A DNA stretch of 64,000 nt from an uncultured delta proteobacterium (GCA_963782055.1 CAWAIF010000003.1:256001-320000), one strand, 5' to 3'; positions 29,990 to 45,241 are shown, counted from the first letter of the stretch. The notes: generated by a model not told the origin, from the letters alone. Program-made: numbers and translations.

Positions 29990-32197
29990 GTGAGCCCGCC
30001 CGGACCTGCGCCTCGCTGGGGCGAGCGCGTCGCTCGCGTGACGGTGATCCTCGCGACGGCGTGGTTCTTCTTCACCGCCATCTGGGGCATCGACCAGATC
30101 CCGGGATCCGGCCACCTCGGGTCGAGCGGCGCCGCCACGGCCATGTTCGGCGAGAACATGGTGCGCTGGCACACCTTCTATGCGCTCTGGGACTGGCACT
30201 CGCTCACGCGCCCGCCGCTCTCCAGCGCGTACTGCCACCACCCCTACGGCGTGCACTGGGCGCAGGCCATCTGCGCGCTCTTCTTCTTCCACCGCAACTT
30301 CGACATCGCCCTGCCGGCGGTCGTCTTCAGCACCCTCACGCCCCCGCTCCTCTACGGCATCGGCCGGCGCATCGGGGGACCGCTGGCGGGCGCGGCGGCC
30401 GCCGTCGGCTTCGTCATCCTCCCGCTCACCATCGGCTACTCCTGCTTCGCCAGCCTGGAGGTGATGACCATCTTCGGGGCCGCCCTCTACTACTGGGGGC
30501 ACCTCCGCTACCAGGAGACCTCGCGGCGTCGCGATCTCGCCTTGATGCTGCTGGGCGTCCTGGTGGCCACCTTCGGCGACTGGGCGGGCTACCTGCTCAT
30601 CGCGCCGGTGCTGGTCTGGACCTTCGCCCGCACCTTCGTCCTGCCGGCGTGGGCCACGCCGATCGGGCGCTTCCGCACCGACGCCCGCGCGTGGGCGTGG
30701 TCGGCGTCCGTCGCCGTCTTCACCGCGGCGGTCACCATCGGCATGTTCAAGCACGCCGACGGCCTCTCCAGCTGGCTCTCCTCGGCGCAGGACCGTGGCG
30801 CCGGGTCCGACCAGCCGCTCTCCACCGTGCTGGAGGCGCGCAAGGCGTGGATCGACTTCAGCTTCACCCCCATCGCCATCGCCATCGGCAAGCTGGCGCT
30901 CCCGGTCGGGGTGATCCGCGCCTCCATCAAGCGCCGAGACGTGGAGATGATGCCGCTCGCCGCCCTCTTCGGCGCCGCCGCGCAGTACCTCGTCTTCAAG
31001 CAGGGCGCCGACGTGCACATCTTCTGGCCGCACTACTTCGGCCTGTACTTCGCGCTCGGCCTCGCGCAGCTCGTCGCCTCGGTGGACGACGTGGTCCGCG
31101 CGGTGGTGCGGCGGTTCTCTCCGACCGAGGCGGTCGCCGCCGGCGCGGTGGCCGCCATGACCGTGATCGCGGTGTCGACGCTGCTCATCCTCCCCGACGG
31201 CGCGCGCTCCCTGCGCATCTGGCGCGAGACGGGCGGCAAGTACGACGACAAGGGCAGCCGCTACCAGTCCGCCGGCGATCTCAACTGGCTGCTGGTCAAC
31301 GCGGTCCGTCCGTACCTCCACCGCGGGGACGTCGTGGGCTTCCACCCCTCGGCCGCGGCCTTCTGGGAGCAGGAGTGGGCCATCGCGGCCACCCCCACCA
31401 CCAGCGCCAAGCCCGACCCCAAGGAGGCGTTCTGGGTCGGGCGGGCGAACAGCATCGGCGCCGACGGGCTGCGGGACCTGGCGAGCAAGCACCACGTGCG
31501 CGTCTACGGCGACGTCGTGCTCGTCCGCCCCTCCGAGCCTCCGGCGCCGCTCGACGCCTTCCTCGTGCAGGAGCGCGAGCCGGGCCCGCTGGAGTGGCTG
31601 CTGACCAACGCGACAGAACCGGTCCGCTCGCTGTCCCCCCAGCCCGACCCCTTCCTCACGTGGGAGTGGCGCTACCACCTCGGACAGGATGCGACGCCGC
31701 CGACGGTCGCGCCGGTCACGCTCGACCAGAAGCGCATCGCGCACAACGTCGCGGTGGCGGCCGGCGACACCGGGCGCGCGGCGAAGCTGGAGCAGGAGGT
31801 CCTCGACTCCATCGACCGCTCGCCGGAGGCGCACTTCACCGGCGGCCACGTCCTGATCGGCATGCGCATCACCCACGGCGTCAAGTCGATGCTGCACCTG
31901 TACTTCTCCTCCGGCGGGCCGACGCCCGGGGCGGCGATGTTCACCGTCCACGCGACGGTCCGGAAGAAGGCGCGCTTCAGCTCCATCCCTGCCGATCCCA
32001 ACGTGATGGACCTGGCGTACCCGCCTTCGATCCCCACCCGGCTCTGGAAGCAGGGGTTCATCTACCGCCTCGACGTGGAGCTGAAGCATCGCATCGGCGA
32101 GGAGGTCCTCTCCGGCGCCTGGGCCTCGCTGGACGGGCGCGCCGCGCCGGCCCCTCTCCACGGCCCGGAGCAGGTGGACCTCGCGGTCCTGCGCTGA
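29990..32197 (+). CDS. GT-C fold membrane glycosyltransferase (ArnT/PMT-like, GT39/83)
   Basis: Many TM helices, YCHHPYG loop, LLYGIGRRIGGPLAGAAAAVGF pattern, large C-terminal soluble domain. Confidence 0.65.
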   Translation: MSPPGPAPRWGERVARVTVILATAWFFFTAIWGIDQIPGSGHLGSSGAATAMFGENMVRWHTFYALWDWHSLTRPPLSSAYCHHPYGVHWAQAICALFFFHRNFDIALPAVVFSTLTPPLLYGIGRRIGGPLAGAAAAVGFVILPLTIGYSCFASLEVMTIFGAALYYWGHLRYQETSRRRDLALMLLGVLVATFGDWAGYLLIAPVLVWTFARTFVLPAWATPIGRFRTDARAWAWSASVAVFTAAVTIGMFKHADGLSSWLSSAQDRGAGSDQPLSTVLEARKAWIDFSFTPIAIAIGKLALPVGVIRASIKRRDVEMMPLAALFGAAAQYLVFKQGADVHIFWPHYFGLYFALGLAQLVASVDDVVRAVVRRFSPTEAVAAGAVAAMTVIAVSTLLILPDGARSLRIWRETGGKYDDKGSRYQSAGDLNWLLVNAVRPYLHRGDVVGFHPSAAAFWEQEWAIAATPTTSAKPDPKEAFWVGRANSIGADGLRDLASKHHVRVYGDVVLVRPSEPPAPLDAFLVQEREPGPLEWLLTNATEPVRSLSPQPDPFLTWEWRYHLGQDATPPTVAPVTLDQKRIAHNVAVAAGDTGRAAKLEQEVLDSIDRSPEAHFTGGHVLIGMRITHGVKSMLHLYFSSGGPTPGAAMFTVHATVRKKARFSSIPADPNVMDLAYPPSIPTRLWKQGFIYRLDVELKHRIGEEVLSGAWASLDGRAAPAPLHGPEQVDLAVLR

Positions 32198-32199
32198 GG

Positions 32200-32240
32200 G
32201 CAGGTTTCACAACCTGCGGGGTCCAGCCGGCCCCTTTTGT
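32200..32240 (+). terminator. Putative intrinsic terminator preceded by a 7-bp palindrome
   Basis: GCAGGTT-TCAC-AACCTGC (32200-32217), then GGGGTC-CAGCC-GGCCCC-TTTTGT. Confidence 0.55.
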
Positions 32241-32256
32241 GGTAATTGGGCGCCCC

Positions 32257-33567
32257 ATGGACGACCGCGTCACGCCGCAGAACCTCGCCCTCTGCGCCAA
32301 CCTCGGGCGCCCCCGGACCATGCTCGCCGTGGGGGCGAACCTCGCCGGGACGGTGCACGTCGCGCGCGACCGCGGGGCGAAGGTCGTCGCGCTGGAGTGG
32401 GAGCCCGCGGCGCTCGATCGTACCCGCGAGGCCGCCGACGAGGCGCACGCGGCGCAGGGGGACCACCCGCTCGGCCCCGTCGCGGGCCGGCGGTTCGACC
32501 TCGTCCTCTTCCAGGACCTGGACGGCCGCGCCAATCTGGACGCTCTGCTGCGCGCCGTCCCCGACCTCCTGGAGGACGGAGGTCACGTCGTCCTCGACCT
32601 CCGACCCGAGTCGCAGGCCGCCGCCCGCGGGGCCTCGCTCCTCGAGCTCGCCGGCCTGGAGGTCCTTCGCACCGACATCGGCCCGCGCATGGTCAAGTCC
32701 CTCGCGACCGCCTCGGTCCACCAGCTCACGCACCCCACCACCTTCGGCCTGGGGCCGCACGTCGTGTGGCCGCTCGAGCGCGTGATCGGCAAGGCCGCGC
32801 CCGCGCGCTTCGCCGAGGAGGTCGTCGTGGTGGGCCGCAAGCCGCCGCGCAAGGGCCCGCTCTCCCTCACCGTCGGCATGCTCACGCTCAACGAGAAGGA
32901 GTCGGTCGAGCGCATGATCGACGACATCCGGGCGGTCGCGCCGGAGGCGAAGCTCCTCCTCATCGACAGCTCGAGCGACGAGACGCCCGACCTCGCCCGC
33001 GCGAAGGGCGCGCGCGTCATCCGCCAGCTCCCGCCCCGCGGCCACGGCCCCGCCATGGAGCGGCTGATGTACGAGGCCGCCTCCGAGAGCGACGCCCTCA
33101 TCTACATCGACTGCGACTTCACCTACCCCACCGCCGAGATCCCGCACATCCTCGAGCTGTTGGAGCAGGGCGCCGACGTGGTCAACGCCAGCCGCACCGC
33201 CCGCTACCCGAAGGCGATGCCCGTCCCCAACTTCCTCGCCAACCGCATGTTCGCCGCCACCGCTCAGGTGGTGCACGGCATCCCCACGACCGACGTGCAC
33301 TCCGGGATGCGCGGCTACCGCGCCTCGGTCATCCGTGGCTTCGACTTCAGCGGGGACGGGGACGCCCTCCCGCTGGACACGCTCATCCTCCCCGCGCGGA
33401 GCAACTACCACGTCGTGGAGTACCCCATCGAGTACAGCGAGCGCGTCGGGGAGTCCAAGCTCGCCAAGCTCCGCGGCACGGTGTGGACCTTCCTGCGCAT
33501 CGCCTCGGCCGTGGGCAACGGCGACCGCGTGCGCAGCGGGCGCCACTACGATCGCCGCCGCTCCTGA
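32257..33567 (+). CDS. Degenerate class I methyltransferase domain fused to GT2 polyprenol-phosphate glycosyltransferase (DPM1-like)
   Basis: N-terminal LAVGAN/FDLVLF/LLEDGG; C-terminal TLNEKES, IDSSSDET, RGHG, IDCDFTYP (DxD), GADVVNASR, TDVHSGMRGY, IEYSERVGESKL. Confidence 0.85.
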   Translation: MDDRVTPQNLALCANLGRPRTMLAVGANLAGTVHVARDRGAKVVALEWEPAALDRTREAADEAHAAQGDHPLGPVAGRRFDLVLFQDLDGRANLDALLRAVPDLLEDGGHVVLDLRPESQAAARGASLLELAGLEVLRTDIGPRMVKSLATASVHQLTHPTTFGLGPHVVWPLERVIGKAAPARFAEEVVVVGRKPPRKGPLSLTVGMLTLNEKESVERMIDDIRAVAPEAKLLLIDSSSDETPDLARAKGARVIRQLPPRGHGPAMERLMYEAASESDALIYIDCDFTYPTAEIPHILELLEQGADVVNASRTARYPKAMPVPNFLANRMFAATAQVVHGIPTTDVHSGMRGYRASVIRGFDFSGDGDALPLDTLILPARSNYHVVEYPIEYSERVGESKLAKLRGTVWTFLRIASAVGNGDRVRSGRHYDRRRS

Positions 33568-33623
33568 GAGGACGCCCCGGGCCCGCGCCGTCTGCTAGCA
33601 TGCCCGGGAAAGCTGGAGGTCTC

Positions 33624-34565
33624 GTGCAATCGTTCGTCGTCGGAGGAGCGGGTTTCATCGGCAGTCACCTCATCGACCGCCTCGTGGAGCGCGGTGAGGT
33701 CACCGCGTACGACAACATGTCGGTGGGGAAGCGCGAGTTCCTCGGCGCCAACCTGGAGTCCGGCCGGGTGAAGCTGGTGGTGGGGGACGCCCTGGACCTG
33801 GAACTGCTCACCCGGTCGATGGCCGGCCACGACGTGGTCTTCCACCTGGCGGCCAACCCGGAGGCGCGCTGGGGCCTGGAGCGCACGCGCCTGGACCTGG
33901 AGCAGGGCACCATCGCCACCTACAACGCCCTGGAGGCCGCGCGGCTCAACGGCATCACCCGCTTCGTCTTCTCCTCGAGCGGCACCGTCTACGGCAACAC
34001 GGCGGAGGCGTGCGCCGAGCCGGACACGCGCCTCCTGCCCATCTCGCTGTACGGCGCGAGCAAGCTCGCGGGCGAGGCGCTCATCTCGGCGTACGTGGAG
34101 TGCTTCAGCTTCCACGGCACCATCGTCCGCTTCGGCAACGTGGTCGGCCCGCGCGGCACCCACGGCGCCATCCTGGACTTCTGCAAGAAGCTCAAGTCCC
34201 ACCCCGAGTACCTGGACGTGCTGGGAGACGGCAAGCAGGCCAAGCCCTACCTGCACGTGACCGACTGCACCGCCGGGGTGCTCTACTGCCACGACAACGC
34301 CACGGAGAAGCTGGGGATCTACAACCTGGCCCCGCCGGACTGGACCAGCGTGCGCCGCATCGCCGAGCTCTGCGTGGCGCGCTCGCCCAACCCGAAGGCG
34401 CGCGTCGAGTATGGCGGCGGGACGCAGGGCTGGCCGGGGGACGTGCCGCTCTCGCGCATCAAGCCGGACAAGCTCGCCGCGCTGGGCTTCAAGGTGCGCT
34501 TCACCTCCGACCAGGCCGTCGACCAGGCCGTGGCCGAGGTCGCGCGCGAAGTGTTCGGGGGCTGA
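33624..34565 (+). CDS. NAD-dependent nucleotide-sugar epimerase/dehydratase
   Basis: GGAGFIG, FHLAAN, SSSGTVYG, YGASK, GDGKQAK; GGAGG before GTG. Confidence 0.92.
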   Translation: MQSFVVGGAGFIGSHLIDRLVERGEVTAYDNMSVGKREFLGANLESGRVKLVVGDALDLELLTRSMAGHDVVFHLAANPEARWGLERTRLDLEQGTIATYNALEAARLNGITRFVFSSSGTVYGNTAEACAEPDTRLLPISLYGASKLAGEALISAYVECFSFHGTIVRFGNVVGPRGTHGAILDFCKKLKSHPEYLDVLGDGKQAKPYLHVTDCTAGVLYCHDNATEKLGIYNLAPPDWTSVRRIAELCVARSPNPKARVEYGGGTQGWPGDVPLSRIKPDKLAALGFKVRFTSDQAVDQAVAEVAREVFGG

Positions 34566-34568
34566 GCC

Positions 34569-35279
34569 GTGCAGGCCGTCGTGCTCGCGGGGGGGCTCGC
34601 CACCCGGCTGCGTCCCCGCACGCTGACCGTGCCGAAGTCCATGCTCCCGGTCTCCGGCCGCCCCTTCGTCGACTGGCAGCTGGAGCTCCTGGCCTCGTGC
34701 GGGATCACCGAGGTGATCATGTGCGTCGCGCACCTGGGCGAGCAGATCCGGGAGCACGTGGGCGACGGCGCGCGCCTCGGCGTGGCCGTCCGCTGGTCCG
34801 ACGAGGGCCCGACGCTCCTGGGCACCGCCGGCGCCCTGCGCGCCGCGCTGCCCATGCTGGAGGAGACCTTCCTCGTCACCTACGGCGACAGCTACCTGCC
34901 CTTCGACTACGCCGCGCCGCTCCGAGAGCTCGGCGCCCGCGCCGACTGCGACGGCGTGATGGCCGTCTTCAAGAACGACGGGCAGTGGGACGCCTCCAAC
35001 GTCCGCACCGACGGCACCTGGGTCATCCGTTACGAGAAGGGCGCCGGGGACCCGGCCTTCGACCACATCGACTACGGCGCCATCGCCCTGCGGCGCGCGG
35101 TGGTCGAGGCGCTCCCCGCCGGCGCCGCGCTCGGGCTGGACGTCGTCCAGCGCGATCTGGCCGCGCGCGGGCGCTTGCGCGCTCACGTGGTGCGTGAGAG
35201 GTTTTACGAGATCGGCTCCGAGCAAGGCCTTTCCGAGTTGGAGCGCTACCTCTCATCGCGCCAAGGAGGCGCCCCATGA
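34569..35279 (+). CDS. hddC: Nucleotidyltransferase, HddC-like heptose-1-P guanylyltransferase
   Basis: LAGGLATRLRP...PKSM, LGTAGAL, YGDSY, FYEIGS; adjacent to hddA/gmhA/gmhB. Confidence 0.75.
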   Translation: MQAVVLAGGLATRLRPRTLTVPKSMLPVSGRPFVDWQLELLASCGITEVIMCVAHLGEQIREHVGDGARLGVAVRWSDEGPTLLGTAGALRAALPMLEETFLVTYGDSYLPFDYAAPLRELGARADCDGVMAVFKNDGQWDASNVRTDGTWVIRYEKGAGDPAFDHIDYGAIALRRAVVEALPAGAALGLDVVQRDLAARGRLRAHVVRERFYEIGSEQGLSELERYLSSRQGGAP

Positions 35280-36271
35280 TCGTCTCGCGCGCGCCCGTCC
35301 GTTTCTCGCTCGGCGGTGGCGGCACGGACCTGCCCAGCTACTCCCGCGACCACGGCGGCTTCCTCGTCGCCGCGGCGATCGACAAGTACGTCTTCGTCGC
35401 CGCCAACCGCCGGTTCTACAAGTCGGTCCGACTCGCGTACTCCAAGACCGAGACGGTGGACTCCATCGACCAGATCGAGCACCGCATCTTCCGCGAGTCG
35501 CTCCGCTTCGAGGGGATCACCCAGGGCATCGAGCTGGTCAGCGTCGCCGACCTGCCGTCCAACTCCGGCCTCGGCTCGTCCAGCGCCTTCACCATCGCCC
35601 TGCTCAACGCGCTGCACGCGTACAAGCGCGAGTTCGTCCCGACGGCGCAGCTCGCCGACGAGGCGTGCCACATCGAGATCGACGTCCTCGGGGAGCCCAT
35701 CGGCAAGCAGGACCAGTACATCAGCGCCTTCGGCGGGATCACCGCGTTCACCTTCGACACGGACGGCACCGTCCACGTGGAGCCGGTGCCCATCAAGGAC
35801 TACGTGATGGACGAGCTGGAGAGCAGCTTGCTCATCTTCTACTCCGGCGTGGAGCGCGCGGCGTCCGCCGTGCTGAGCGAGCAGCGCAAGTCCATCAAGG
35901 CGAACAAGGACGGCGCGCTCGAGCGCATGCACCGCATCAAGCAGCTCGGCTACGACACCCGCGACATCCTGGTGAAGGGCAACCTGGACGCGTACGGCGA
36001 CCTCTTGCACGAGCACTGGACCAACAAGCGCAAGCTCGCCTCCAACATGACCGACTCGGTCATCGACGAGCACTACGAGGCGGCGCGCAAGGCCGGCGCC
36101 ATCGGCGGCAAGCTCATGGGCGCCGGCGGCGGCGGCTTCTTCATGTTCTACGTGCGCCCGGCGGACAAGCGCCGCGTCTACGAGGCCCTCGTCACCCGCG
36201 GGCTGCGCCCGCTGCGCTTCCGCTTCGACTTCGACGGCGCGCGCATCGTCGCCAACTTCCACCGTTCGTGA
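35276..36271 (+). CDS. hddA: GHMP kinase, D-glycero-alpha-D-manno-heptose-7-P kinase
   Basis: RAPVRFSLGGGGTDLP, PSNSGLGSS, GKQDQY, GGKLMGAGGGGF. Confidence 0.88.
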   Translation: MIVSRAPVRFSLGGGGTDLPSYSRDHGGFLVAAAIDKYVFVAANRRFYKSVRLAYSKTETVDSIDQIEHRIFRESLRFEGITQGIELVSVADLPSNSGLGSSSAFTIALLNALHAYKREFVPTAQLADEACHIEIDVLGEPIGKQDQYISAFGGITAFTFDTDGTVHVEPVPIKDYVMDELESSLLIFYSGVERAASAVLSEQRKSIKANKDGALERMHRIKQLGYDTRDILVKGNLDAYGDLLHEHWTNKRKLASNMTDSVIDEHYEAARKAGAIGGKLMGAGGGGFFMFYVRPADKRRVYEALVTRGLRPLRFRFDFDGARIVANFHRS

Positions 36272-36284
36272 GAGGCACCCCCGG

Positions 36285-36884
36285 ATGACCACCTTCAGCC
36301 AGCAGTTCCTCGAAGAGAGCGTCGCCCTCATCAAGGCGCTCGACACCACCAGCATCGAGGCCGTGGCCGACGGCCTCGCCGCGGTGCGCGCCGGCGGCGG
36401 GCGCCTCTTCATCCTGGGCGTCGGCGGGTCGGCCGGGCACGCCAGCCACGCGGTCAACGACTTCCGGAAGATCTGCGGCTTCGAGGCCTACACACCGACG
36501 GACAACGTCTCCGAGCTCACCGCCCGCACCAACGACGAGGGCTGGGACACCACCTTCTCCGAGTGGCTGAAGGGCTCCCGCCTGCGCGAGGACGACGCGC
36601 TCCTCATCTACTCCGTCGGCGGCGGCAACAAGGAGAAGAACGTCTCGGTCAACCTGGTGCGGGCGATGGAGCTCGCCAAGGAGCGCGGGGCGAAGGTCTT
36701 CGGCATCGTCGGCCGCGACGGCGGCTACACCAAGCAGGTCGCCGACGCGTGCGTGCTGGTGCCGGTGGTGAGCAAGGACCGCATCACCCCCCACACCGAG
36801 GGCTTCTGCGCGGTGCTCTGGCACCTGCTGGTCAGCCACCCGAAGCTGCAGATCGCCGCGACGAAGTGGGAATCGACCAAGTGA
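36285..36884 (+). CDS. gmhA: Sedoheptulose-7-phosphate isomerase (SIS)
   Basis: GVGGSAGHASH, LTARTND, SVGGG...SVNLVRA. Confidence 0.85.
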   Translation: MTTFSQQFLEESVALIKALDTTSIEAVADGLAAVRAGGGRLFILGVGGSAGHASHAVNDFRKICGFEAYTPTDNVSELTARTNDEGWDTTFSEWLKGSRLREDDALLIYSVGGGNKEKNVSVNLVRAMELAKERGAKVFGIVGRDGGYTKQVADACVLVPVVSKDRITPHTEGFCAVLWHLLVSHPKLQIAATKWESTK

Positions 36885-37504
36885 CCCGGGGCGTCGTCCT
36901 CGACCGCGACGGCACCCTCGTGGACGTCGTGCGCGACGAGGAGACCGGCGTCATCACGACGGCCTTTCATCCCGACCAGCTCCGCCTCCTGCCGGGCGTG
37001 GTCGAGGCGCTGCGCCAGCTCGCCGGCGCAGGCTACGTCCTCGCCATCGCCACCAACCAGCCGGGCCCGGCCAAGGGGCACTTCTCCGCCGCCGCCGTGG
37101 CGCGCACCAACGCCGCGCTGGTGGAGATGCTCGCGCGGGAGAAGGTGGAGATCGCAAAGGTTGCAGTATGCATGCATCACCCGGCGGGCGGCCCGGGCGG
37201 AGACCCCCAGCTCGTCGGGCCGTGCCGCTGCCGCAAGCCGCAGCCGGGGATGATCGAGGACCTGGCGCGCGATCTCGACCTGGACCGCGCCGCCTCGTGG
37301 GTGGTGGGAGACACCGTCTCCGACGTGGAGGCCGGCCGCGCCGCGGGGATGCGCACTGCGCTGGTGTTCGACCCGCGCCGCTGCGAGCTCTGCCCTCTGC
37401 GCGCCGGCGTCTCGTCGGTGTCCACCCTGCCCCACGTCTCGGGAAAGTCGCTGCTCGAGGTCGCGGGCGCGCTGGTCGACACGCTCGCGGCGGGAGGCGG
37501 GTAG
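36881..37504 (+). CDS. gmhB: Heptose-1,7-bisphosphate phosphatase (HAD IIIA)
   Basis: LDRDGT, ATNQPG, CMHHP...CRCRKPQPGM, VGDTVSDVEAG; GTGA overlap. Confidence 0.9.
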   Translation: MTRGVVLDRDGTLVDVVRDEETGVITTAFHPDQLRLLPGVVEALRQLAGAGYVLAIATNQPGPAKGHFSAAAVARTNAALVEMLAREKVEIAKVAVCMHHPAGGPGGDPQLVGPCRCRKPQPGMIEDLARDLDLDRAASWVVGDTVSDVEAGRAAGMRTALVFDPRRCELCPLRAGVSSVSTLPHVSGKSLLEVAGALVDTLAAGGG

Positions 37505-37505
37505 G

Positions 37506-38438
37506 ATGGGGATCCTCCGTTCGCTCGCCACCGGTCTCGGAGAGGTCGTGCTCCTCCGGCATGCCGAGGCGCGAGCGCGCGAGCGCGGCGAGGAGCGCAC
37601 GCGCGACGTGAAGGGGCTCAAGGCGGCCGCGCGGCTGCGGCTCGTCGCGTCGCGCAAGATGTCGTCGGCCGTGGCCGCGGTGGTGCTCCTCGACGCGGCG
37701 CTTCGCCTCGCCGTGGAGGCGGCGCGCGCGGAGGCGGGCGACGCCGGTGACGCGCCGGTGACCGCGGCGGAGCTGGAGCGGTACGCGCCGTCGGTGGCGC
37801 CGGCGGCGCGCGCGCGGGTGGAGGCGCACCTGGGCGACGCGGACCCCCTCGCCGTCGACGCGCTCCCCCCCGCGCACGCCGAGCGCCTGCGTGACGCGCT
37901 CGATCGCGTGGTCGGCAAGCTCCTCTCCGGCGTGGACGCGCGCTCGGTCGTCGAGCTGCGCGCGCTGCGCTACGGCCGCGTGGCCGCCCTGGTGCTGGTG
38001 CCGCTGCTGCTCCTGGGGGGCTGGGCCCGCGCGGCGCTGCTCCCGCGCAACATCGCGCTGGGCAAGCCGGTGTACACCAGCCCGCTGCGCTTCAACCCCC
38101 CGAACCCGTCGCAGGTGACCGACGGCCGCACGCGGGGCACGTACAACGTGCACACGGTGAGGCAGGCGCACCCGTTCGTCACCGTGGATTTGGAGCGCTC
38201 CTATCACGTGGACCGCGTGCGCGTGTACAACCGCGGCGACGGCTGGTTCGACGACATGGTGCCGCTCACGCTCCAGGTGTCCGAGGACGGCACGCACTTC
38301 CAGGACGCGGCGAAGCGGACCGAGGGCTTCCACGTGTGGACCGCCGACCTGGGCGGCCGCGAGGCGCGCTACGTCCGGGTGACCAAGGACCAGGGCTACA
38401 TCGCCCTCATGGAGATCGAGGTCTACGGTCGGCCGTGA
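37506..38438 (+). CDS. Membrane-anchored discoidin (F5/8 type C) domain protein
   Basis: One TM helix, then NIALGKPV...VTDG...VDL...VYNRGD...ARYVRV...EIEVYG. Confidence 0.8.
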   Translation: MGILRSLATGLGEVVLLRHAEARARERGEERTRDVKGLKAAARLRLVASRKMSSAVAAVVLLDAALRLAVEAARAEAGDAGDAPVTAAELERYAPSVAPAARARVEAHLGDADPLAVDALPPAHAERLRDALDRVVGKLLSGVDARSVVELRALRYGRVAALVLVPLLLLGGWARAALLPRNIALGKPVYTSPLRFNPPNPSQVTDGRTRGTYNVHTVRQAHPFVTVDLERSYHVDRVRVYNRGDGWFDDMVPLTLQVSEDGTHFQDAAKRTEGFHVWTADLGGREARYVRVTKDQGYIALMEIEVYGRP

Positions 38439-40321
38439 CGCCCAACGACCCGGTTTCGCCCGAGCCGAGCGCGGCGGCGCGGAGGCCCTCGCGCGCGGCC
38501 CGCTGGGCCCGCGTGGCGCTCGACGTCTTCACGGTGCTGCTCGGCCTCGGGCTCGTCGCGCTCGTGTGCGCGCCGCTCTTCTCCCGGCTGGACTCCTACG
38601 GCACCCACGACTGGGACCAGATGCAGTCCCACCGCTACGTGATGGTGAAGACCATCCGCGTCTTCCACCAGTTCCCCTTCTGGAACCCGTGGAGCTGCGG
38701 CGGCCACACCTGGTGGGGGGGGCTGGAGAGCGGGAGCACGCTGGTCTCCCCGTGGCTGCCGGCCTACGTCTTCTTGAAGTTCCCGGTCGCCCTGCGCGTG
38801 GAGGTCACCGGCACCGCGGTGCTCTCCCTGGTCGGCACGTGGCTGCTGTCGGGGCGCTACACGCGCAGCCCGGGCGCGCGGCTGCTCGTCATCGCGGCGT
38901 TCGTCGTCACCGGACGCTGGGCCCTGCAGGTGAAGGCCGGGCACATGTGGCACCTGTACTACGCGTGGGTCCCCTTCGCGCTGTACTTCATGGACCGCGC
39001 CGCCTGCACCCCGCCGGCTGATCGCCGCAGGACCCTGCGCGAGGTCGCGCTCCTCGGGGGCGTGCTCGCGATGATGGTCTACACCGGCGCGATCTACCCG
39101 CTGCCCCAGGTCATCGTCCTGCTCGCGGTCTACTCCCTGGCGCTGGCCGTCGCGTGGCGATCGCTCCGGCCGGTGGGCCTCGCGGTGGCCGCCGGCGTCT
39201 TCTCCTTCCTCTTCGCCGCGCCGCGCCTGCTCCCCATCTTCGATATGCTCCGGCGCTTCCCGCGTCTCACCGACTCCAACGAGACGATGGACCTGGGCGC
39301 GCTGATCGGCATCTTCACCGCCCGCTCCACCGACCCGCAGCCCTCGGTCGGGCCGTGGGGGTGGCACGAGTTCGGCGCGTACATCGGGTGGGTGCCGGTC
39401 CTGCTCATGCTGGTCGCGCCCTTCGTGGCGCGACGGGCGCGGCCGCGCGCGCTCATGATCAGCGGCGTCGCGTGCATCGTGCTCGGCCTGGGCCGCTTCC
39501 ACGAGTACGCGCCGTGGGGCATCCTGCACGACCACCTGCCCATCTTCGAGTCGCAGCACGTGCCCTCGCGGTGGCTCTACGTCGCGCCGCTCCTGCTGGT
39601 GCTCACGTCGATGGCCGCGCTCGAGCGGGTGCTCTCGCGCGCGCGCCGCCGCTGGCTGCTGGAGATCGCCATGCTCTTCTCGGCCGCCTACGTCGCCCTG
39701 GACGTGGGGCTGGAGGCGCAGAAGCCGGTCGTCTCGGCGCTCACGCGCAACCCGCCGCACGTCACGCCGTCCGTCGCGCCCTACCACCAGTACAACGTCG
39801 CGCCGCCGTCGCTCCGCTACGAGTCGAGCGACTGGGCGCCCCCCAGCATGCCCGCCATGATGGCCAACGTCGGCGTCATCGACTGCGCGACCTTCCCCGG
39901 CCTGCAGACCTACTTCCGCGGCACCCCCAACAACCCCACCATCGGCCTCGGCGCGCACGGCGAGGGCGATCCGGCGTACCGCGGCGAGCTGTACACGGCC
40001 ACCGGCGTCGGCAAGCTGACCTTCACGCGCTGGACGCCCAACGACATGCGCGTCCACTACGAGGGAGCGAACCCCGGCGACACCCTGGTCCTCAATCAGA
40101 ACTGGGACCCCGGCTGGAGGGCGAACGGCAAGCCGGTGATGAACTACTCCAGCGCAGTGGGGACGGAGATCCACGGCTCGAGCGGGGACGTGGATTTCCG
40201 CTTCGTCCCGCGCTTCTTCTGGCTCGGCGTGCTGCTGCTCGTCGCGACGGCGGGCGGCCTCGTCTTCGCATTCCGCCGCCTGCCGCGCGCCCCGGCGAGC
40301 TTGCGCGAGGGGACGTCTTGA
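38435..40321 (+). CDS. YfhO-like GT-C fold membrane protein
   Basis: THDWD loop, FPFWNPWSCGG, many TM helices, PSRW, C-terminal LVLNQNWDPGWRANG and final TM. Confidence 0.7.
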   Translation: MTPNDPVSPEPSAAARRPSRAARWARVALDVFTVLLGLGLVALVCAPLFSRLDSYGTHDWDQMQSHRYVMVKTIRVFHQFPFWNPWSCGGHTWWGGLESGSTLVSPWLPAYVFLKFPVALRVEVTGTAVLSLVGTWLLSGRYTRSPGARLLVIAAFVVTGRWALQVKAGHMWHLYYAWVPFALYFMDRAACTPPADRRRTLREVALLGGVLAMMVYTGAIYPLPQVIVLLAVYSLALAVAWRSLRPVGLAVAAGVFSFLFAAPRLLPIFDMLRRFPRLTDSNETMDLGALIGIFTARSTDPQPSVGPWGWHEFGAYIGWVPVLLMLVAPFVARRARPRALMISGVACIVLGLGRFHEYAPWGILHDHLPIFESQHVPSRWLYVAPLLLVLTSMAALERVLSRARRRWLLEIAMLFSAAYVALDVGLEAQKPVVSALTRNPPHVTPSVAPYHQYNVAPPSLRYESSDWAPPSMPAMMANVGVIDCATFPGLQTYFRGTPNNPTIGLGAHGEGDPAYRGELYTATGVGKLTFTRWTPNDMRVHYEGANPGDTLVLNQNWDPGWRANGKPVMNYSSAVGTEIHGSSGDVDFRFVPRFFWLGVLLLVATAGGLVFAFRRLPRAPASLREGTS

Positions 40322-40343
40322 GGCACCCTCCGCCGCCGCCTCG

Positions 40344-40994
40344 ATGCCCGAGATGAAGCCCATGGATTTCGCAAATCGCGAGGGGGATCGCAACACCTCC
40401 TTCGGGGAGGCGCACCGCCAGACACCGGTCGATCGCTTCGGCGTGTGGCTCTCCTCGGTGCGCATCCGGCGCGCGGTGCGCAGCTTCGCCGGCAAGGACG
40501 TGGGCGATTTCGGCTGCGGCTTCCAGGCCGACTTCATGCGCACCGTCCTGCCGGAGGTGGCGTCGGCCACCCTGGTGGACCTCTCCCTGGCCGAGGATCT
40601 CAAGACCCACCCGAAGGTGACCGCCCTGCAGGGCGTGCTGCCCGAGATCCTGGAGAAGGTGCCCGACGCGAGCCTGGACGTCGTCCTCTGCAACAGCGTG
40701 CTCGAGCACCTCTGGAGCCCGGCGGTCGCGGTGCGTCACATGCGCCGCGTCCTGCGTCCGGGCGGGGTCGCCTTCGTGAACGTACCCTCCTGGCGCGGCA
40801 AGTTCTTCCTGGAGACCGCCGCCTTTCGCCTCCACGTGAGCCCCGCGCAGGAGATGGACGACCACAAGCGCTACTACTCGCCGCGGGAGCTCTGGACGCT
40901 CCTGGTGGAGGGTGGCTTCCGGCCGAGCGAGATCAAGGCGTGCCACACGCACAAGTTCGGGCTGAACACATTTGCCTGGTGCCGGCTGAGCTGA
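40344..40994 (+). CDS. Class I SAM-dependent methyltransferase
   Basis: DFGCG, SVLEHL, RVLRPGG, DHKRYYS. Confidence 0.88.
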   Translation: MPEMKPMDFANREGDRNTSFGEAHRQTPVDRFGVWLSSVRIRRAVRSFAGKDVGDFGCGFQADFMRTVLPEVASATLVDLSLAEDLKTHPKVTALQGVLPEILEKVPDASLDVVLCNSVLEHLWSPAVAVRHMRRVLRPGGVAFVNVPSWRGKFFLETAAFRLHVSPAQEMDDHKRYYSPRELWTLLVEGGFRPSEIKACHTHKFGLNTFAWCRLS

Positions 40995-41091
40995 CGCCGG
41001 CCCTCCCGCGGGGCGCGCGCCGGCCTCCGGCGAGCCCGTGGCGCGACGCCGCGGCGCGTGTGCTACACAAAGAAATTACTTAGGAGGACGA

Positions 41092-41748
41092 ATGGCCATC
41101 TTCATCGACAGCTCGGACCCCAAGGAAATCAAGGATCTCTTCGGCTGGGGGGTGCTCTCCGGCGTCACCACCAACCCGCTCATCATCTCCCGCGAGGCGC
41201 CCGACGCCGACCTGGGCGAGCGCATCCGCGAGATCCTCGCGGTGAGCTGGGGCGACGTCTCGGTGGAGCTCACGACGGAGACCGAGAAGGAGATGCTGGA
41301 GGAGGCGGCCGGCTATCACGCCTGGGACCCGCAGCGCATCACCATCAAGGTGCCGATGAGCGAGCACGGCCTGCGTGTCGTGCACGCGCTCACCAAGAAG
41401 GGCGTGAAGACCAACGTCACCTGCCTGATGGCGATGAACCAGGCGTACCTCGCCGCCCTCGCCGGGGCGACGTACGTCAGCATCTTCAGCGGGCGCGTGC
41501 GCGACATGGGCTACGACGTCTTCCCGGTCATCGAGAACACCCGCAAGGTGCTCGACCGCGAGGGCCTGGGCGCCAAGATCATCGTCGGATCCATGCGCCA
41601 CATGATGGACGTGAACGAGGCGCTCAACGCCGGCGCTCACGTCCCCACGATCACCCCGCCCATCCTGCGCAAGATGGTGTGGAACCCGCGGACGATCACC
41701 ACGATCGACGAGTTCAACACCGCCTGGAAGAACCGCGGCAAGAAGTAG
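41092..41748 (+). CDS. tal: Transaldolase / fructose-6-P aldolase family (short TalC type)
   Basis: IFIDS, GVTTNP, IKVP (Schiff-base Lys), TNVT, YVSIFSGR; strong AGGAGG ribosome-binding site. Confidence 0.88.
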   Translation: MAIFIDSSDPKEIKDLFGWGVLSGVTTNPLIISREAPDADLGERIREILAVSWGDVSVELTTETEKEMLEEAAGYHAWDPQRITIKVPMSEHGLRVVHALTKKGVKTNVTCLMAMNQAYLAALAGATYVSIFSGRVRDMGYDVFPVIENTRKVLDREGLGAKIIVGSMRHMMDVNEALNAGAHVPTITPPILRKMVWNPRTITTIDEFNTAWKNRGKK

Positions 41749-41769: not shown

Positions 41770-42393
41770 TCACGCAGGCTTGCGGGCGCGCCCGGCCAGC
41801 ACCCAGCCGAAGGAGATGCGCTCGACGCGGACCTCCACCAGGCCCGCCGCGGCGAGGGTGCGTTCCAGCCGCGCCGCGTCGAACTTGGTCGGGTGCAGCC
41901 CCTTGCGGCTGAACCCTTGCGCGCGCGCGACAATCTCCAGGGCGGTGCCCTCGATGACGCGCAGCAATCGCGAGCCGTAGTTGGGCGTGGTGACGAGCAG
42001 CCGGCCGCCGGGCGCCGTCACGCGCACCAGCTCCTCCAGCCAGGGGCCGGGCTCGACGACGTGCTCGATGACGTCCATGGCCACCACCAGGTCGAAGCTC
42101 CCCGCCGGGTAGGGCAGGGGCGCGCCCGCCGTGATGACGTCGGCGCGCTCCAGGCGCCCCGCGTGCAGCCGCCGCGCTGCCTCCACCGCGCGCGGGTCGA
42201 TGTCGCACGCGGTGTAGCGCGCCCCGCGCGGCAGGCGCTCCAGCTCGAAGAAGGGACCGGCGCCCACGTTGAGCACGCGCTCCCCGGCGCGCACCTCCCC
42301 GCGGAGGGCCCGCACCAGCGGCCCGTGGTAGAGGCTCCACGGGAAGCGGAGCTTCAGCCGGTGGTTGTCGAAGTAGTCGACCGCCTCGGCCAT
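41770..42393 (-). CDS. Class I SAM-dependent methyltransferase
   Basis: VLNVGAG, FDLVVAMDVIEHV, APGGRLLVTTPN. Confidence 0.88.
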   Translation of the reverse strand: MAEAVDYFDNHRLKLRFPWSLYHGPLVRALRGEVRAGERVLNVGAGPFFELERLPRGARYTACDIDPRAVEAARRLHAGRLERADVITAGAPLPYPAGSFDLVVAMDVIEHVVEPGPWLEELVRVTAPGGRLLVTTPNYGSRLLRVIEGTALEIVARAQGFSRKGLHPTKFDAARLERTLAAAGLVEVRVERISFGWVLAGRARKPA

Positions 42394-42394: not shown

Positions 42395-43219
42395 TCAGCG
42401 CTCGCGCCTGACCACGACCAGGAACTCCGCGGTCGGCGTGTCGTCGCCGGCGAGGGCGAGGGCGGCCGTCGCCAGGCGGTAGGCAATGGGGGCGGCCGCG
42501 CGCCTCGCGCGAGGGAAGTTGGTCCAGCGCGTCGTCATCTTGCGGTTCATCCACCCGAGCACCGAGGGCAAGAGGAAGAGCTCGAACGCCACCGTCGTCG
42601 CGGTGGAGAGCACCGGCTCGATGGACTCCAGCACGAAGGGCGAGCGCGCGACCACGTCCCGCCAGCCCTGCTCGTCGTAGAGGTGGTGGTGCACGAAGAC
42701 GCGGTCCAGCCGGTCCTGCAGCGCCTTCGACAGCCCGGGGAAGCCGGCGACTCGCAGCGCGCGGAGGCTGACCATGTGGCTCGCCCAGTCGCGGTTGGGC
42801 ACGAAGAGGTACGCGCGCCCGCCCGGCTTGAGGCTGTCGTGGATGGTGCGCAGCGCCTGGTCCAGGTCGGGCACGTGCTCGAGCGAGCAGTTGGCCACGC
42901 ACGTCTCGAAGAAGGCGGCGGGCAAGCGGGCGCGGGTGATGTCGCCCAGGATGATCTGGTCGTAGGCGCGGCTCGCCTGCGCCCAGCGCCCCTCGTTGGC
43001 GTCGATGTCGATACCCCACACCTCCGCGTCGGCGAAGGCGATGGACGCGAAGAGGCCGTCTCCGCACCCCACGTCCAGGATGGGGCTCGCGCACCCGTGG
43101 CGGCGCAGCACGTCCAGGCGGGCGCACTCCTTGATGCAGAGCGCCGTCGGCGCCCGGGGGAAGTACCGCCGGAAGTCCTCGAGCTGGATCTCGGCTCTGC
43201 TCGGGGGAGGAGGTCGCAC
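42395..43219 (-). CDS. Class I SAM-dependent methyltransferase
   Basis: ILDVGCGDG, SLEHVPD, LKPGG. Confidence 0.88.
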   Translation of the reverse strand: MRPPPPSRAEIQLEDFRRYFPRAPTALCIKECARLDVLRRHGCASPILDVGCGDGLFASIAFADAEVWGIDIDANEGRWAQASRAYDQIILGDITRARLPAAFFETCVANCSLEHVPDLDQALRTIHDSLKPGGRAYLFVPNRDWASHMVSLRALRVAGFPGLSKALQDRLDRVFVHHHLYDEQGWRDVVARSPFVLESIEPVLSTATTVAFELFLLPSVLGWMNRKMTTRWTNFPRARRAAAPIAYRLATAALALAGDDTPTAEFLVVVRRER

Positions 43220-45241
43220 TCAGTCCTTCTTCGGTCCCTCGTTGTAGCCGCGCGGGCGGTACTTGGGGTCCACGCCGTTGTTCTTCTCGCCGTTGTTCGC
43301 CACGTCGCGCTGCAGGTAGTCCAGCCAGGAGCCCGGGTGCGCGGCGCCCATCTTCTCCAGCTCGGCCTCGTGCTGGTCGAAGTCCTTCTCGTCCCACATG
43401 CACTGCAGGCCCAGCGCGATGAGGCTGAGGTCGTTGGGGCCGAGCTCGAAGCCGCGCTTGTAGTGCGGCCATGCCTCCTCCGCGCGGTGCATCCGGCAGA
43501 GGGTGTCGCCCAGGTAGACGTTCGCCATCGGCCACTCGGGCGCGAGCTTCAGGGCCACCAGGTTCGCCTTGCGGCGCTCCTCCAGGTTGCCGCGGGCGCC
43601 TTGCATGACCGAGTAGTTGAGGTGGGCCTTGGCGCTGTTGGGCACCGCGTGCCGCGTGGCGTCCCAGAAGGTGAGGTCGTCGGCGTAGTCGTCGGCGTGC
43701 CGCCGCGCGGAGAAGGACTGCATGCCGAAGTAGAGGCCGACGAAGGCGATGCCCGCCCACGCCAGGTGCTTCGCGCGGGTGACGTCCAGCAGGCGGTGGA
43801 GCGCGATGGCGACCAGGACGCTGGAGCCGATGGCGGGGAAGTACCAGAAGCGCTCGGCGCGCACCGTGGGCAGCACGAGCGGAATGTTGGAGACGGGGAA
43901 GTAGCTCACCACGATCCACGTCATCGCCACCGCGGCGATGGCGCCGTAGTCCACCAGGAGGGCGCTCTCCCCGCGCAGCCGCGCCTTCCACGCGCGCCAC
44001 ATCGCGCGCACGCCGACGACGAGGGACGCCAGCATCGGTCCGACCATCATCAGCGCGCCGAGCACGCTCTCCGGGAAGACGAGGTGCTTGGGGATGGGCT
44101 CCTGCGGCGCCGAGTAGTCGCCGGAGAGCGTCCACGGGAAGACGACCTGCGTGAGGCCGCGCCAGTAGACTCGCAGCGCGCCCGCCGTGCGGAAGGAGGG
44201 CGTCGCCTTCACCAGCGGGTTGTTGAGCGGGTCCTTCGGCAGCCCGGGTTGCGCGTACCAGCGCAGCAGCCCGGCGAAGGTGCGGCCGGCGAGGCCCTTG
44301 TGCGCGCTCGCCGCCGGGAGCAGCTCCGGCGGCGTGGGCGTGGGGAACATCCGTTTTCGCGCCTCGACGTAGAGCACGAAGGCGGCCATCGTCGCGGTGA
44401 GCGCCACGCCCATCCGCGCCCAGCGCATCGGCCGCTTGGGGTGCGTCACGTGCGCCATGAGCAGCGCGGCGAAGGGCACCAGCGGGACGATGCAGAGCGC
44501 GCTCTCCTTGGAGTACAGGCCCAGGAGCGTGGCGCCGAAGAGGGCGAGGGGCATCCCCCACATGGGCAGCGCCAGCGCGCACAGCGCGAGCAGCGCGCCC
44601 AGGCCGCCGAGCACGTCGGCCAGGCCGACCACGCCGCTCACCGCCTCCGTCACCACCGCGCACGCGGTGAAGGCCACCCCGGCGAGCCACGCGGTGCCGC
44701 GGTTCTTGGTGACGCGCATCACGATGAGCACGAGCAGCGCGCCGTTCACCCCGTGCAACAGGACGTTGATCCAGTGATGGAGGAAGGGGGTCTGGTCGCG
44801 CGCGCCGAGCGCCCAGAGGGCGCGCCAGATGAGGTCGGGCAGCGGCCGGTAGGAGCCGATGGTGCGGTCGGGTGTCAGGCCCCAGAAGTCGCGGTAGAAG
44901 GCGTCGACCCAGCGCAGGTGCGACGTCGGGTCGGCCACGCTGCGCACGTACGGGTTGGCGAGCAGCGCCTCCTGCTCGTCGAAGATGAAGTTGGTGCGCA
45001 CCGGGTTGCGCGTGTAAAGGAGCATCGACAGAAAGCACATCGGCACGATGGCCGAGCTCAGCGTCGGGTCCTCGCCCAGGAAGTAACCGCGCAGGAAGGA
45101 GCGGACCGTGATGATCCACGGCGGCTTGCCGTCCTTCCTGCTGGCGTCGGCCGGCGTCCCCGCGGGCGCGGTCTCCGCCGACGGCGGCGCGTCGGCCGGA
45201 GCGGTCTCGGGCGGCGGCGGATCGTGGGGCGGCTCGGTCAT
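43220..45241 (-). CDS. TMTC-like protein O-glycosyltransferase (GT-C, DUF1736, TPR)
   Basis: FIFDE...N, DFWG...SYRPL, INVLLH, TEAVSGVVG-ADVL, SKE, FPWTLSGDYS, PVSN...AERFWYFP, PNSAKAHLN, then TPRs. Confidence 0.82.
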   Translation of the reverse strand: MTEPPHDPPPPETAPADAPPSAETAPAGTPADASRKDGKPPWIITVRSFLRGYFLGEDPTLSSAIVPMCFLSMLLYTRNPVRTNFIFDEQEALLANPYVRSVADPTSHLRWVDAFYRDFWGLTPDRTIGSYRPLPDLIWRALWALGARDQTPFLHHWINVLLHGVNGALLVLIVMRVTKNRGTAWLAGVAFTACAVVTEAVSGVVGLADVLGGLGALLALCALALPMWGMPLALFGATLLGLYSKESALCIVPLVPFAALLMAHVTHPKRPMRWARMGVALTATMAAFVLYVEARKRMFPTPTPPELLPAASAHKGLAGRTFAGLLRWYAQPGLPKDPLNNPLVKATPSFRTAGALRVYWRGLTQVVFPWTLSGDYSAPQEPIPKHLVFPESVLGALMMVGPMLASLVVGVRAMWRAWKARLRGESALLVDYGAIAAVAMTWIVVSYFPVSNIPLVLPTVRAERFWYFPAIGSSVLVAIALHRLLDVTRAKHLAWAGIAFVGLYFGMQSFSARRHADDYADDLTFWDATRHAVPNSAKAHLNYSVMQGARGNLEERRKANLVALKLAPEWPMANVYLGDTLCRMHRAEEAWPHYKRGFELGPNDLSLIALGLQCMWDEKDFDQHEAELEKMGAAHPGSWLDYLQRDVANNGEKNNGVDPKYRPRGYNEGPKKD

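What the first reader, a model, noticed from the sequence alone, without database searches (positions are those of the whole stretch)
29990..45241. Candidate lipid-linked heptose glycosylation system (GDP-heptose, polyprenol-P GT2, three GT-C transferases, methyltransferases)
Seen: gmhA, hddA, gmhB and hddC-like genes, a transaldolase, an extended-SDR epimerase, one GT2 of DPM1/polyprenol-phosphate type, three GT-C-fold membrane proteins (ArnT/PMT-like, YfhO-like, TMTC-like), a discoidin protein and three methyltransferases. No GT-B heptosyltransferase, Wzx/Wzy or ABC exporter is in the locus. Established: GmhA-HddA-GmhB-HddC make GDP-D-glycero-alpha-D-manno-heptose, and GT-C enzymes use polyprenol-phosphate-sugar donors. 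Inference: the GT2 loads a possibly epimerised or methylated heptose onto polyprenol phosphate, and the GT-Cs transfer it to periplasmic acceptors, possibly proteins. The protein heptosylation I know of (Aah/TibC) uses ADP-heptose in the cytoplasm; I do not know of a polyprenol-P-heptose route.
Basis: partly seen in the sequence, partly recalled or inferred. Interest (0 to 1): 0.85.

Follow-up and report, generated by a model that had tools for sequence, protein, structure and literature searches.

The report
Lipid-carried rare-sugar glycosylation module
A myxobacterial gene cluster, recurring in many related genomes, likely builds an unusual seven-carbon (possibly eight-carbon) sugar, likely loads it on a membrane lipid and is predicted to attach it outside the cell membrane, a lipid-carried sugar for which our literature searches found no description.

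Summary
All genes are real. The genome is a Polyangiaceae-type myxobacterium. The lipid-linked reading survives: the GT2 keeps polyprenol-phosphate motifs and co-occurs with the pathway isomerase in 48 of 52 genomes. No GT4 lies near 60 pathway loci (7 of 41 control loci), the genome has no GT9, and one membrane protein folds as GT-C (pLDDT 94.5, Z 19).

Two corrections. (1) The pathway is not the textbook GDP-manno-heptose one. The isomerase has an invariant H/D/E/H tetrad instead of GmhA's H/E/Q/H, shared with the HygP-like isomerase of a hygromycin-type cluster. The epimerase is a GDP-sugar 4-epimerase type, and a dedicated transaldolase lies near 33 of 60 loci (0 of 41 controls). The sugar is likely a non-manno heptose, or a lincomycin-type octose. 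(2) The TMTC-like protein is a family-wide core gene (111 of 121 genomes), not part of the module. Acceptor, flippase and methylation are unresolved.

The scan noted similar cassettes before on other genomes. New variant of three-component glycosylation.

The parts
29990..32197 (+). GT-C candidate 1 (PMT_2/ArnT-like, 735 aa from the GTG; a database start gives 719 aa); family lacks the DxD of the first outer loop, has invariant H42, HHP, E157, D197 and E55 in 91%
   Evidence: terminator-like hairpin at 32218-32234
32257..33567 (+). Fusion: eroded class I methyltransferase domain (about aa 1-200) + polyprenol-phosphate GT2 (DCD, ASR, DVHSGMR, ERVGESK motifs)
   Evidence: NF041391 158 bits, cut-off 375; DPMS 5mlz E 5.5e-9
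33624..34565 (+). Extended-SDR epimerase closest to the GDP-sugar 4-epimerase PhGal4E_1; P80, R83, N174, H182, YxxxK equivalents present
   Evidence: (8rdg E 6e-72)
34569..35279 (+). Sugar-1-phosphate nucleotidyltransferase (HddC/LmbO/MurU-like; nucleotide not established)
   Evidence: (MurU 120 bits, HddC 70 bits)
35276..36271 (+). GHMP anomeric kinase (HddA/LmbP-like), ATGA-coupled to the previous gene
   Evidence: NF049969 176 bits, cut-off 600
36285..36884 (+). SIS ketose-aldose isomerase with H55/D59/E172/H180 in place of GmhA H64/E68/Q175/H183
36881..37504 (+). HAD-IIIA bisphosphate phosphatase (GmhB/LmbK-like)
37506..38438 (+). Membrane-anchored protein with C-terminal F5/8C (discoidin) domain; overlaps the start of GT-C 2
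   Evidence: next to a GT-C-type gene in 11 of 17 cases
38435..40321 (+). GT-C 2 (YfhO-like architecture), invariant G56/D59/W60 of a GxHDWD motif after TM1
   Evidence: pLDDT 94.5; STT3/AglB/Pmt4 Z 17-19, ArnT 14.7
40344..40994 (+). Class I methyltransferase 1, with orthologues in 11 other module stretches (two of them the same locus)
41092..41748 (+). Dedicated small (TalC-type) transaldolase; genome also has a long-type housekeeping transaldolase
41770..42393 (-). Class I methyltransferase 2 (no close orthologue in the other loci)
42395..43219 (-). Class I methyltransferase 3 (no close orthologue in the other loci)
43220..45241 (-). TMTC-like GT-C with C-terminal TPR: flanking core gene of the family, not part of the module

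Best explanation
The cluster encodes a transaldolase, isomerase, kinase, phosphatase, nucleotidyltransferase and 4-epimerase-type enzyme that likely make a GDP-activated heptose other than D,D-manno-heptose, a GT2 that likely loads it on undecaprenyl phosphate, and two predicted GT-C transferases that would attach it to an acceptor outside the cytoplasmic membrane. Steps: (1) transaldolase supplies sedoheptulose 7-phosphate [inferred]; (2) the D/E-type SIS isomerase gives an aldoheptose 7-phosphate of gluco or altro rather than manno configuration [inferred from active site and HygP-like kin]; (3) kinase, phosphatase and nucleotidyltransferase give the NDP-alpha-sugar, probably GDP [inferred]; (4) the SDR epimerises C4, for example gluco to galacto [inferred]; (5) the GT2 inverts it onto polyprenol phosphate [family motifs shown, substrate inferred]; (6) a flippase encoded elsewhere (lone GtrA at G000 C2:417398-417844 is a candidate) moves it [untested]; (7) GT-C 1 and GT-C 2 transfer it, possibly helped by the discoidin protein, to a periplasmic glycan or glycolipid [fold shown for GT-C 2 by model; acceptor unknown]; methyltransferases may O-methylate the sugar [untested]. 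The TMTC-like neighbour is a separate core enzyme, more likely fed by the stand-alone Ppm1-like GT2.
For: GT2 subfamily in 52 of 121 family genomes and A/B-type isomerase in 68 of 121; both in 48, GT2 only in 4, isomerase only in 20 (kin not independent). Of 19 isomerase-only genomes fetched, 11 carry another polyprenol-P-type GT2 in the stretch. Transaldolase directly next to the GT2 in 14 of 21 stretches holding both, including five where the kinase/nucleotidyltransferase genes are not in the stretch. Within 7 kb of the isomerase: GT4 0 of 60 vs 7 of 41 other SIS loci; polyprenol-P GT2 29 of 60 vs 5 of 41; transaldolase 33 of 60 vs 0 of 41. No GT9 in this genome, GT9 in only 10 of 68 module genomes, and in 4 of those beside a separate canonical E/Q GmhA. 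Rhizobium plasmid copy has a 13-TM protein + GtrB-like + GtrA-like gene in one run with the pathway. GT-C fold of GT-C 2. D/E tetrad shared with the SIS gene of a hygromycin-B-type cluster; HygP turns S7P into D-glycero-D-altro-heptose (PMC10948575 passage). 4-epimerase residues conserved.
Against: No biochemistry. The dedicated transaldolase is absent from the hygromycin-type heptose cluster and from canonical GmhA loci but is the hallmark of the lincomycin octose route, which favours the octose rival. 8 of 19 isomerase-only genomes have no polyprenol-P GT2 in the fetched stretch, and 31 of 60 loci have none within 7 kb. GT-C 1 lacks the first-loop DxD said to be present in all GT-C families examined in PMC6801728 and had no PDB hit. 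No flippase in the locus. The genome has 16 GT4 and 14 GT2 hits elsewhere, so a cytoplasmic consumer is not excluded. The closest named GT2 family is a haloarchaeal dolichol-phosphate hexose transferase. The TAL and GT2 profiles were built from module members, which favours them in the counts.
Confidence: 0.45

Rival explanations
1. Same lipid-linked route, but the sugar is an octose: the transaldolase joins a C3 unit to ribose 5-phosphate (LmbR-like), and the isomerase, kinase, phosphatase, guanylyltransferase and epimerase act as LmbN, P, K, O, M, giving Und-P-octose.
For: The gene set matches the lincosamide C8 set in PMC4351081 Table 2. Transaldolase near 33 of 60 module loci vs 0 of 41 others, although the genome has a housekeeping transaldolase. 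LmbL/LmbZ-like dehydrogenase + Gfo/Idh/MocA pair in 5 of 60 loci incl. Rhizobium and Lawsonia. Module transaldolases of the window's type share substitutions (TCxM, S[IL]F[SA]GR[VI]RD) not seen in the solved TalC-type enzymes aligned.
Against: No Lmb/Ccb sequence could be obtained, so kinship is untested. The D/E tetrad also occurs in an S7P-using HygP-like enzyme. Two unrelated transaldolase subfamilies are interchangeable in the module, as expected for a mere supply role. Octoses in surface glycans are very rare (recalled).
Confidence: 0.3
2. One reading: GDP-D,D-manno-heptose is loaded on polyprenol phosphate and all three GT-Cs, including the TMTC-like one, heptosylate periplasmic acceptors such as proteins.
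For: Best curated kinase hit is HddA; only GmhA structures match the isomerase; the TMTC gene is near module genes in a few genomes (G424, G475, G418, G421).
Against: Isomerase lacks E68/Q175, called completely conserved in GmhA, and Q175E is inactive (PMC5705639); it groups outside the canonical clade; four genomes keep a second, canonical GmhA beside their GT9. TMTC-like gene present in 47 genomes without the A/B isomerase.
Confidence: 0.1
3. Two co-located but uncoupled systems: the GT2/GT-Cs use an ordinary hexose, and the higher-carbon NDP-sugar is consumed by a cytoplasmic GT-A/GT-B enzyme elsewhere (O-antigen or EPS).
For: Closest named GT2 family transfers hexose; the region downstream of the TMTC gene collects unrelated glyco-genes (5 of 18 stretches); many GT4/GT2 genes elsewhere in the genome.
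Against: GT2 almost never occurs without the isomerase (4 of 52, three of them in genomes 67-89% complete); transaldolase-GT2 adjacency; several distinct polyprenol-P GT2 clades are recruited to the same pathway.
Confidence: 0.12

Closest known systems
Three-component glycosylation systems (GtrA/GtrB/GtrC; ArnC/ArnE-F/ArnT; CsbB/GtcA/YfhO; Ppm1/Pmt) [recalled]
   Same: Polyprenol-phosphate GT2 plus GT-C transferase(s); GtrA-like and GtrB-like genes in some related loci.
   Different: Donor would be a C7/C8 sugar from a dedicated in-cluster pathway; no flippase in this locus; GT2 fused to a methyltransferase domain; GT-C 1 lacks the first-loop DxD; acceptor unknown.
[quoted passage not shown]
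   Same: Same four enzyme folds.
   Different: All below curated cut-offs; isomerase H/D/E/H instead of H/E/Q/H; added transaldolase and 4-epimerase; travels with GT-C rather than GT9/GT4.
Lincosamide GDP-octose pathway LmbR/N/P/K/O/M (plus LmbL/Z)
   Same: Identical enzyme-type list including a dedicated transaldolase and epimerase (PMC4351081); L/Z-like pair in some related loci.
   Different: No aminotransferase, dehydrogenase pair or thiol chemistry here; product would go to a lipid carrier, not an antibiotic; sequence kinship untested.
Hygromycin B heptose branch (HygP isomerase and partners)
   Same: Same D/E metal-ligand tetrad; kinase 39% and phosphatase 38% identical to the genes of a hygromycin-type cluster.
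   Different: Only about 30-36% identity, not in the A/B clade; no transaldolase, no lipid carrier. Naming the plasmid SIS gene HygP is my inference from the cluster content.
Haloarchaeal dolichyl-phosphate hexose transferase (NF041391; that HVO_1613 belongs to it is recalled)
   Same: Closest named GT2 family, 40-42% identity over 204 aa.
   Different: Below cut-off (158 vs 375 bits); bacterial, methyltransferase-fused, tied to a higher-sugar pathway.
TMTC1-4 protein O-mannosyltransferases (GT105)
   Same: GT-C 3: DE after TM1, TPR tail, Atlas neighbours with TMTC_DUF1736 and PMT_2+TPR.
   Different: No Pfam DUF1736 hit in 18 sequences scanned; bacterial; activity unknown.

Membership tests
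GmhA (S7P to D,D-manno-heptose 7-P) | Zn ligands H64/E68/Q175/H183 | tested here: not met
   H55/D59/E172/H180 invariant in 18 of 18 aligned relatives; PMC5705639 passages
GmhA (S7P to D,D-manno-heptose 7-P) | Curated score / placement in the canonical clade | tested here: not met
   TIGR00441 56.5 vs 209 bits; A+B clade (SH-aLRT 86) apart from E/Q clade (99), quick tree
HddA/GmhB/HddC GDP-heptose pathway | Curated family cut-offs | tested here: not met
   176/600, 56/250, 70/300 bits; works-like claim unaffected
HddA/GmhB/HddC GDP-heptose pathway | GTP as nucleotide, manno-heptose as sugar | not testable with these tools
   MurU is the closer family; GDP-preferring epimerase kin points to GDP
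Lincosamide octose pathway | Dedicated transaldolase + isomerase + kinase + phosphatase + nucleotidyltransferase + epimerase | tested here: met
Lincosamide octose pathway | Orthology to LmbR/LmbN/LmbP/LmbK/LmbO | not testable with these tools
   no Lmb sequence obtained
Lincosamide octose pathway | LmbL/LmbZ/LmbS tailoring genes | tested here: not met
   absent from the window; L/Z-like pair in 5 of 60 related loci
Polyprenol-phosphate GT2 (DPMS/GtrB/ArnC class) | DxD signature, acceptor-side SR, C-terminal E..P....R.G.SK motifs; nearest solved structures DPMS and ArnC | tested here: met
   signature described in PMC9943897; other motif roles recalled
Polyprenol-phosphate GT2 (DPMS/GtrB/ArnC class) | Donor sugar | not testable with these tools
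   forms its own clade apart from the Ppm1-like GT2
GT-C superfamily (GT-C 2) | GT-C fold and acidic motif after TM1 | tested here: met
   pLDDT 94.5; Z 19.0, rmsd 4.0, 395 aligned to STT3; D59 invariant in 129 sequences
GT-C superfamily (GT-C 1) | PMT_2 domain | tested here: met
   29.5 bits over cut-off 26.1 (25.1, just under); PF13231 on most of 120 homologues
GT-C superfamily (GT-C 1) | DxD/DE motif in first outer loop | tested here: inconclusive
   no DxD; invariant H42 and E55 in 110 of 120; no structure was predicted for this protein
TMTC/GT105 (GT-C 3) | DUF1736 + TPR architecture | tested here: inconclusive
   TPR yes; Atlas cluster with PF08409 at 0.98; no direct Pfam hit
Three-component glycosylation system | GtrA-type flippase | tested here: inconclusive
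   none in locus; one GtrA elsewhere in the genome; GtrA in L025, GtrA-like in L040
GDP-sugar 4-epimerase subgroup (PhGal4E_1) | P80, R83, N174, H182, YxxxK | tested here: met
   all present in the window; 37, 39, 37, 45, 45 of 45 module epimerases

The most novel reading that the evidence does not exclude
Myxobacteria make a methylated eight-carbon sugar on undecaprenyl phosphate and use GT-C enzymes, one with a histidine-based active site, to add it to periplasmic glycoproteins primed by a conserved TMTC-like O-mannosyltransferase: a eukaryote-style, lipid-donor protein glycosylation pathway with an octose.
Probability: 0.1. Interest if true: 0.88.

Novelty: new variant of a known kind. Interest (0 to 1): 0.6.

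Why it matters
Polyprenol-phosphate donors that I know of are pentoses, hexoses, amino sugars and uronic acids (recalled); three full-text searches of the held library found no polyprenol-phosphate heptose (subscription journals are largely missing). The pathway isomerase occurs in 68 of 121 sampled genomes of the family and in Rhizobium and Lawsonia, and at least 8000 isomerase relatives exist (capped), so a common, uncharacterised surface sugar is at stake. Five soluble enzymes plus one GT2 make the question directly testable, would define what D/E-type 'GmhA' isomerases make, and would correct a widespread 'sedoheptulose isomerase' annotation.

Tried and rejected
Rejected: TMTC-like gene as part of the module. 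Rejected: D/E substitution as evidence for octose by itself, since a HygP-like enzyme and many transaldolase-free SIS loci share it. Rejected: LPS inner-core heptose role (no GT9, though LpxC is present). No Lmb/Ccb sequences found in PDB, plasmids, homologue names or supplements; Sasaki 2012, Lin 2014, Tang 2018 and one review were not held, so their content is recalled or taken from citing papers. Single-sequence fold of GT-C 2 was uninformative (pLDDT 41.6); profile searches of GT-C 1 and 2 against PDB sequences gave nothing. The 1.84-billion-protein search and the complex prediction (GT-C 2 with the discoidin domain) were not available, so binding is untested. No RNA run was listed. No sigma-70-like promoter. 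The GT2 tree is the quick version only; the isomerase tree held four mis-cut rows (L131_x, L135_x, L139_x, L141_x) that I ignored. In one search, L002 and L015 (duplicates) and L016/L017 (near duplicates of L099) were dropped before counting. Supplements of bioRxiv preprints were closed and not seen.


Full report
Setting. The window is G000:C3:256001-320000 of a 7.58 Mb genome, 97% complete. Close GT2 relatives come mostly from records titled Polyangiaceae or Myxococcales.

Observation. All fourteen genes are present. Eleven run on the + strand from 29990 to 41748, three on the - strand from 45241 to 41770, and three junctions overlap by four bases. Its SAM motif is intact in one clade of relatives and eroded in the window's clade. 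The sugar genes are single-copy in the genome, which also has a long-type housekeeping transaldolase.

The lipid-linked route. The GT2's nearest solved structures are DPMS and ArnC. Its nearest named family is a haloarchaeal dolichyl-phosphate hexose transferase, at 158 bits against a cut-off of 375 and 40-42% identity. The class motifs are conserved, and the subfamily forms a clade apart from the genome's stand-alone Ppm1-like GT2 (quick tree). In 121 genomes of the family (G000 included) the GT2 subfamily occurs in 52 and the isomerase subfamilies A or B in 68: both 48, GT2 only 4, isomerase only 20, neither 49 (odds ratio 29, but kin are not independent). I fetched the isomerase locus of 19 of the 20 isomerase-only genomes: 11 hold another polyprenol-phosphate-type GT2, 8 hold none in the stretch. 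In 21 stretches with both transaldolase and this GT2, they are direct neighbours in 14, mostly in one clade. Within 7 kb of the isomerase, 60 module loci had GT4 0, polyprenol-P GT2 29, transaldolase 33; 41 loci of other GmhA-like genes had GT4 7, GT2 5, transaldolase 0 (four duplicate stretches dropped; the GT2 and transaldolase profiles were built from module members). Pfam scans of 90 and 95 neighbouring proteins found no GT4, GT9 or Wzy and one Wzx. The genome has LpxC but no GT9. GT9 occurs in 10 of the 68 module genomes, and in four of these it sits beside a separate canonical GmhA. A Rhizobium plasmid carries a 13-TM protein, GtrB-like and GtrA-like genes in one run with the same pathway, and a Lawsonia plasmid has the pathway with a GT2 and two 14-16-TM proteins.

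The membrane enzymes. GT-C 2 had no Pfam hit (3 of 120 homologues carry YfhO). With 129 sequences it folds at pLDDT 94.5 and matches only GT-C structures at the top: STT3 Z 19.0 (rmsd 4.0, 395 aligned), Pmt4 18.2, AglB 17.6, ArnT 14.7. These are near ties and say nothing on the acceptor. D59 after TM1 is invariant. GT-C 1 is PMT_2-type but has an invariant His, not a DxD, in the first loop, against the general rule in PMC6801728 (passages); it was not folded. The discoidin protein neighbours a GT-C-type gene in 11 of 17 cases; binding is untested. No flippase is in the locus; one GtrA lies alone elsewhere.

The TMTC-like gene is not part of it. It is TMTC-like by TPR tail and Atlas neighbours, though no Pfam DUF1736 hit was found. 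It is present in 111 of 121 genomes, 47 of which lack the A/B isomerase. An SDR gene accompanies it in 16 of 18 fetched stretches; only 2 of 18 hold a module gene, while 5 hold other glyco-genes. Against my reading: in G424 it directly precedes the module and in G475 it is about 13 kb away, so its downstream side is a glyco-gene hot spot and cooperation is not excluded. A stand-alone Ppm1-like GT2 is present in 95 of 121 genomes and is the likelier donor source (inference).

Which sugar. All four 'heptose' genes fall far below the curated cut-offs. The isomerase has H55/D59/E172/H180, invariant in 18 of 18 aligned relatives, where GmhA has H64/E68/Q175/H183, described as completely conserved, with Q175E inactive (PMC5705639 passages). 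Subfamilies A and B group together outside the canonical clade. The same tetrad is in the SIS gene of a Streptomyces plasmid cluster with APH(7'')-Ia, which I read as hygromycin B type. HygP converts S7P to D-glycero-D-altro-heptose (PMC10948575 methods passage). So the tetrad argues against manno, not against heptose. The epimerase is closest to the GDP-preferring 4-epimerase PhGal4E_1 (E 6e-72) and keeps its four key residues (PMC12171764 abstract and passages). The nucleotidyltransferase is closer to MurU than to HddC, so GDP is inferred. The enzyme list equals the lincomycin C8 list (PMC4351081 passages and supplement search; PMC12945683 one passage), the transaldolase link is specific to this module, and an LmbL/LmbZ-like pair joins it in 5 of 60 loci. 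Two unrelated transaldolase subfamilies serve interchangeably. I could not compare with Lmb sequences. My odds for the sugar: non-manno heptose about 0.5, octose about 0.35, manno about 0.15; for the lipid-linked route about 0.8.

Literature. Searches (listings only) found no polyprenol-phosphate heptose; searches supplied the papers above. PMC9943897 (passages) and PMC9654166 (passages) were also read in part. Sasaki 2012, Lin 2014 and Tang 2018 were not seen and are known only from citing text or recall. Most subscription journals are not in the library.

Earlier scan notes. One search listed eight AI notes on other genomes; two describe the same lipid-linked pairing and six an octose-or-heptose cassette. 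I had noted the octose rival before looking. They are not counted as support. The HygP comparison, 4-epimerase assignment, GT9/GmhA partition and exclusion of the TMTC-like gene were tested here.

Verdict. Real, conserved and uncharacterised: a new variant of three-component glycosylation with a rare higher-carbon sugar. The architecture is known, the donor would be new, and sugar, acceptor and methylation are open. Interest 0.6.

Noticed in passing
window 43220-45241 (-), with SDR and RNase H genes upstream to 46984: A TMTC-like GT-C is a near-universal gene of this family (111 of 121 genomes) in a conserved RNaseH-SDR-TMTC arrangement; with the equally common Ppm1-like GT2 (95 of 121) it suggests core protein O-mannosylation in Polyangiaceae.
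   Followed up: partly
L103 (G000 C3:2660314-2667409): Second lipid-linked module in the same genome: 475-aa DPM-like GT2, 513-aa 7-TM protein, discoidin protein, two Gmd-like SDRs and a sugar C-methyltransferase (branched methyl-deoxy sugar); in G190 and G475 it abuts the heptose-type module.
   Followed up: partly
L104 (G000 C2:229084-237504): Third module: PMT_2 protein, GtrB-like GT2, epimerase and two further multi-TM proteins whose orthologues neighbour the isomerase in other genomes.
   Followed up: partly
window 29990-32197: GT-C 1 family (438 homologues) has invariant histidines (H42, H83, H84, H343 99%) and no first-loop DxD: possibly an unusual GT-C active site.
   Followed up: partly
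window 29757-29832 (-): tRNA-Lys(CTT) directly flanks the cluster on its 5' side.
   Followed up: no
L041 (NC_008014.1) and L040 (NZ_CP104159.1): Lawsonia and Rhizobium plasmids carry the full cassette plus a nucleotide-sugar dehydrogenase, SDR and Gfo/Idh/MocA set resembling LmbL/LmbZ; the Rhizobium copy ends next to insertion-sequence genes.
   Followed up: partly
L145 (NZ_CP016083.1): A hygromycin-B-type biosynthetic cluster with APH(7'')-Ia on a Streptomyces sp. SAT1 replicon listed as a plasmid.
   Followed up: partly
L147 (CP050083.1): A different, widespread Rhizobium plasmid cassette: D/E-type SIS, glycosyltransferase, 656-aa hypothetical, flippase-like protein, SDR, HAD fusion, GHMP kinase; no transaldolase; 58 Rhizobium plasmids matched the kinase query.
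   Followed up: no
L078:11404-12134: In G225 the transaldolase beside the GT2 is called in two pieces (119 and 124 aa), a frameshift or assembly error.
   Followed up: no
window 21139-29752: Upstream DUF5682 and DUF4132 genes, unrelated to the module.
   Followed up: no
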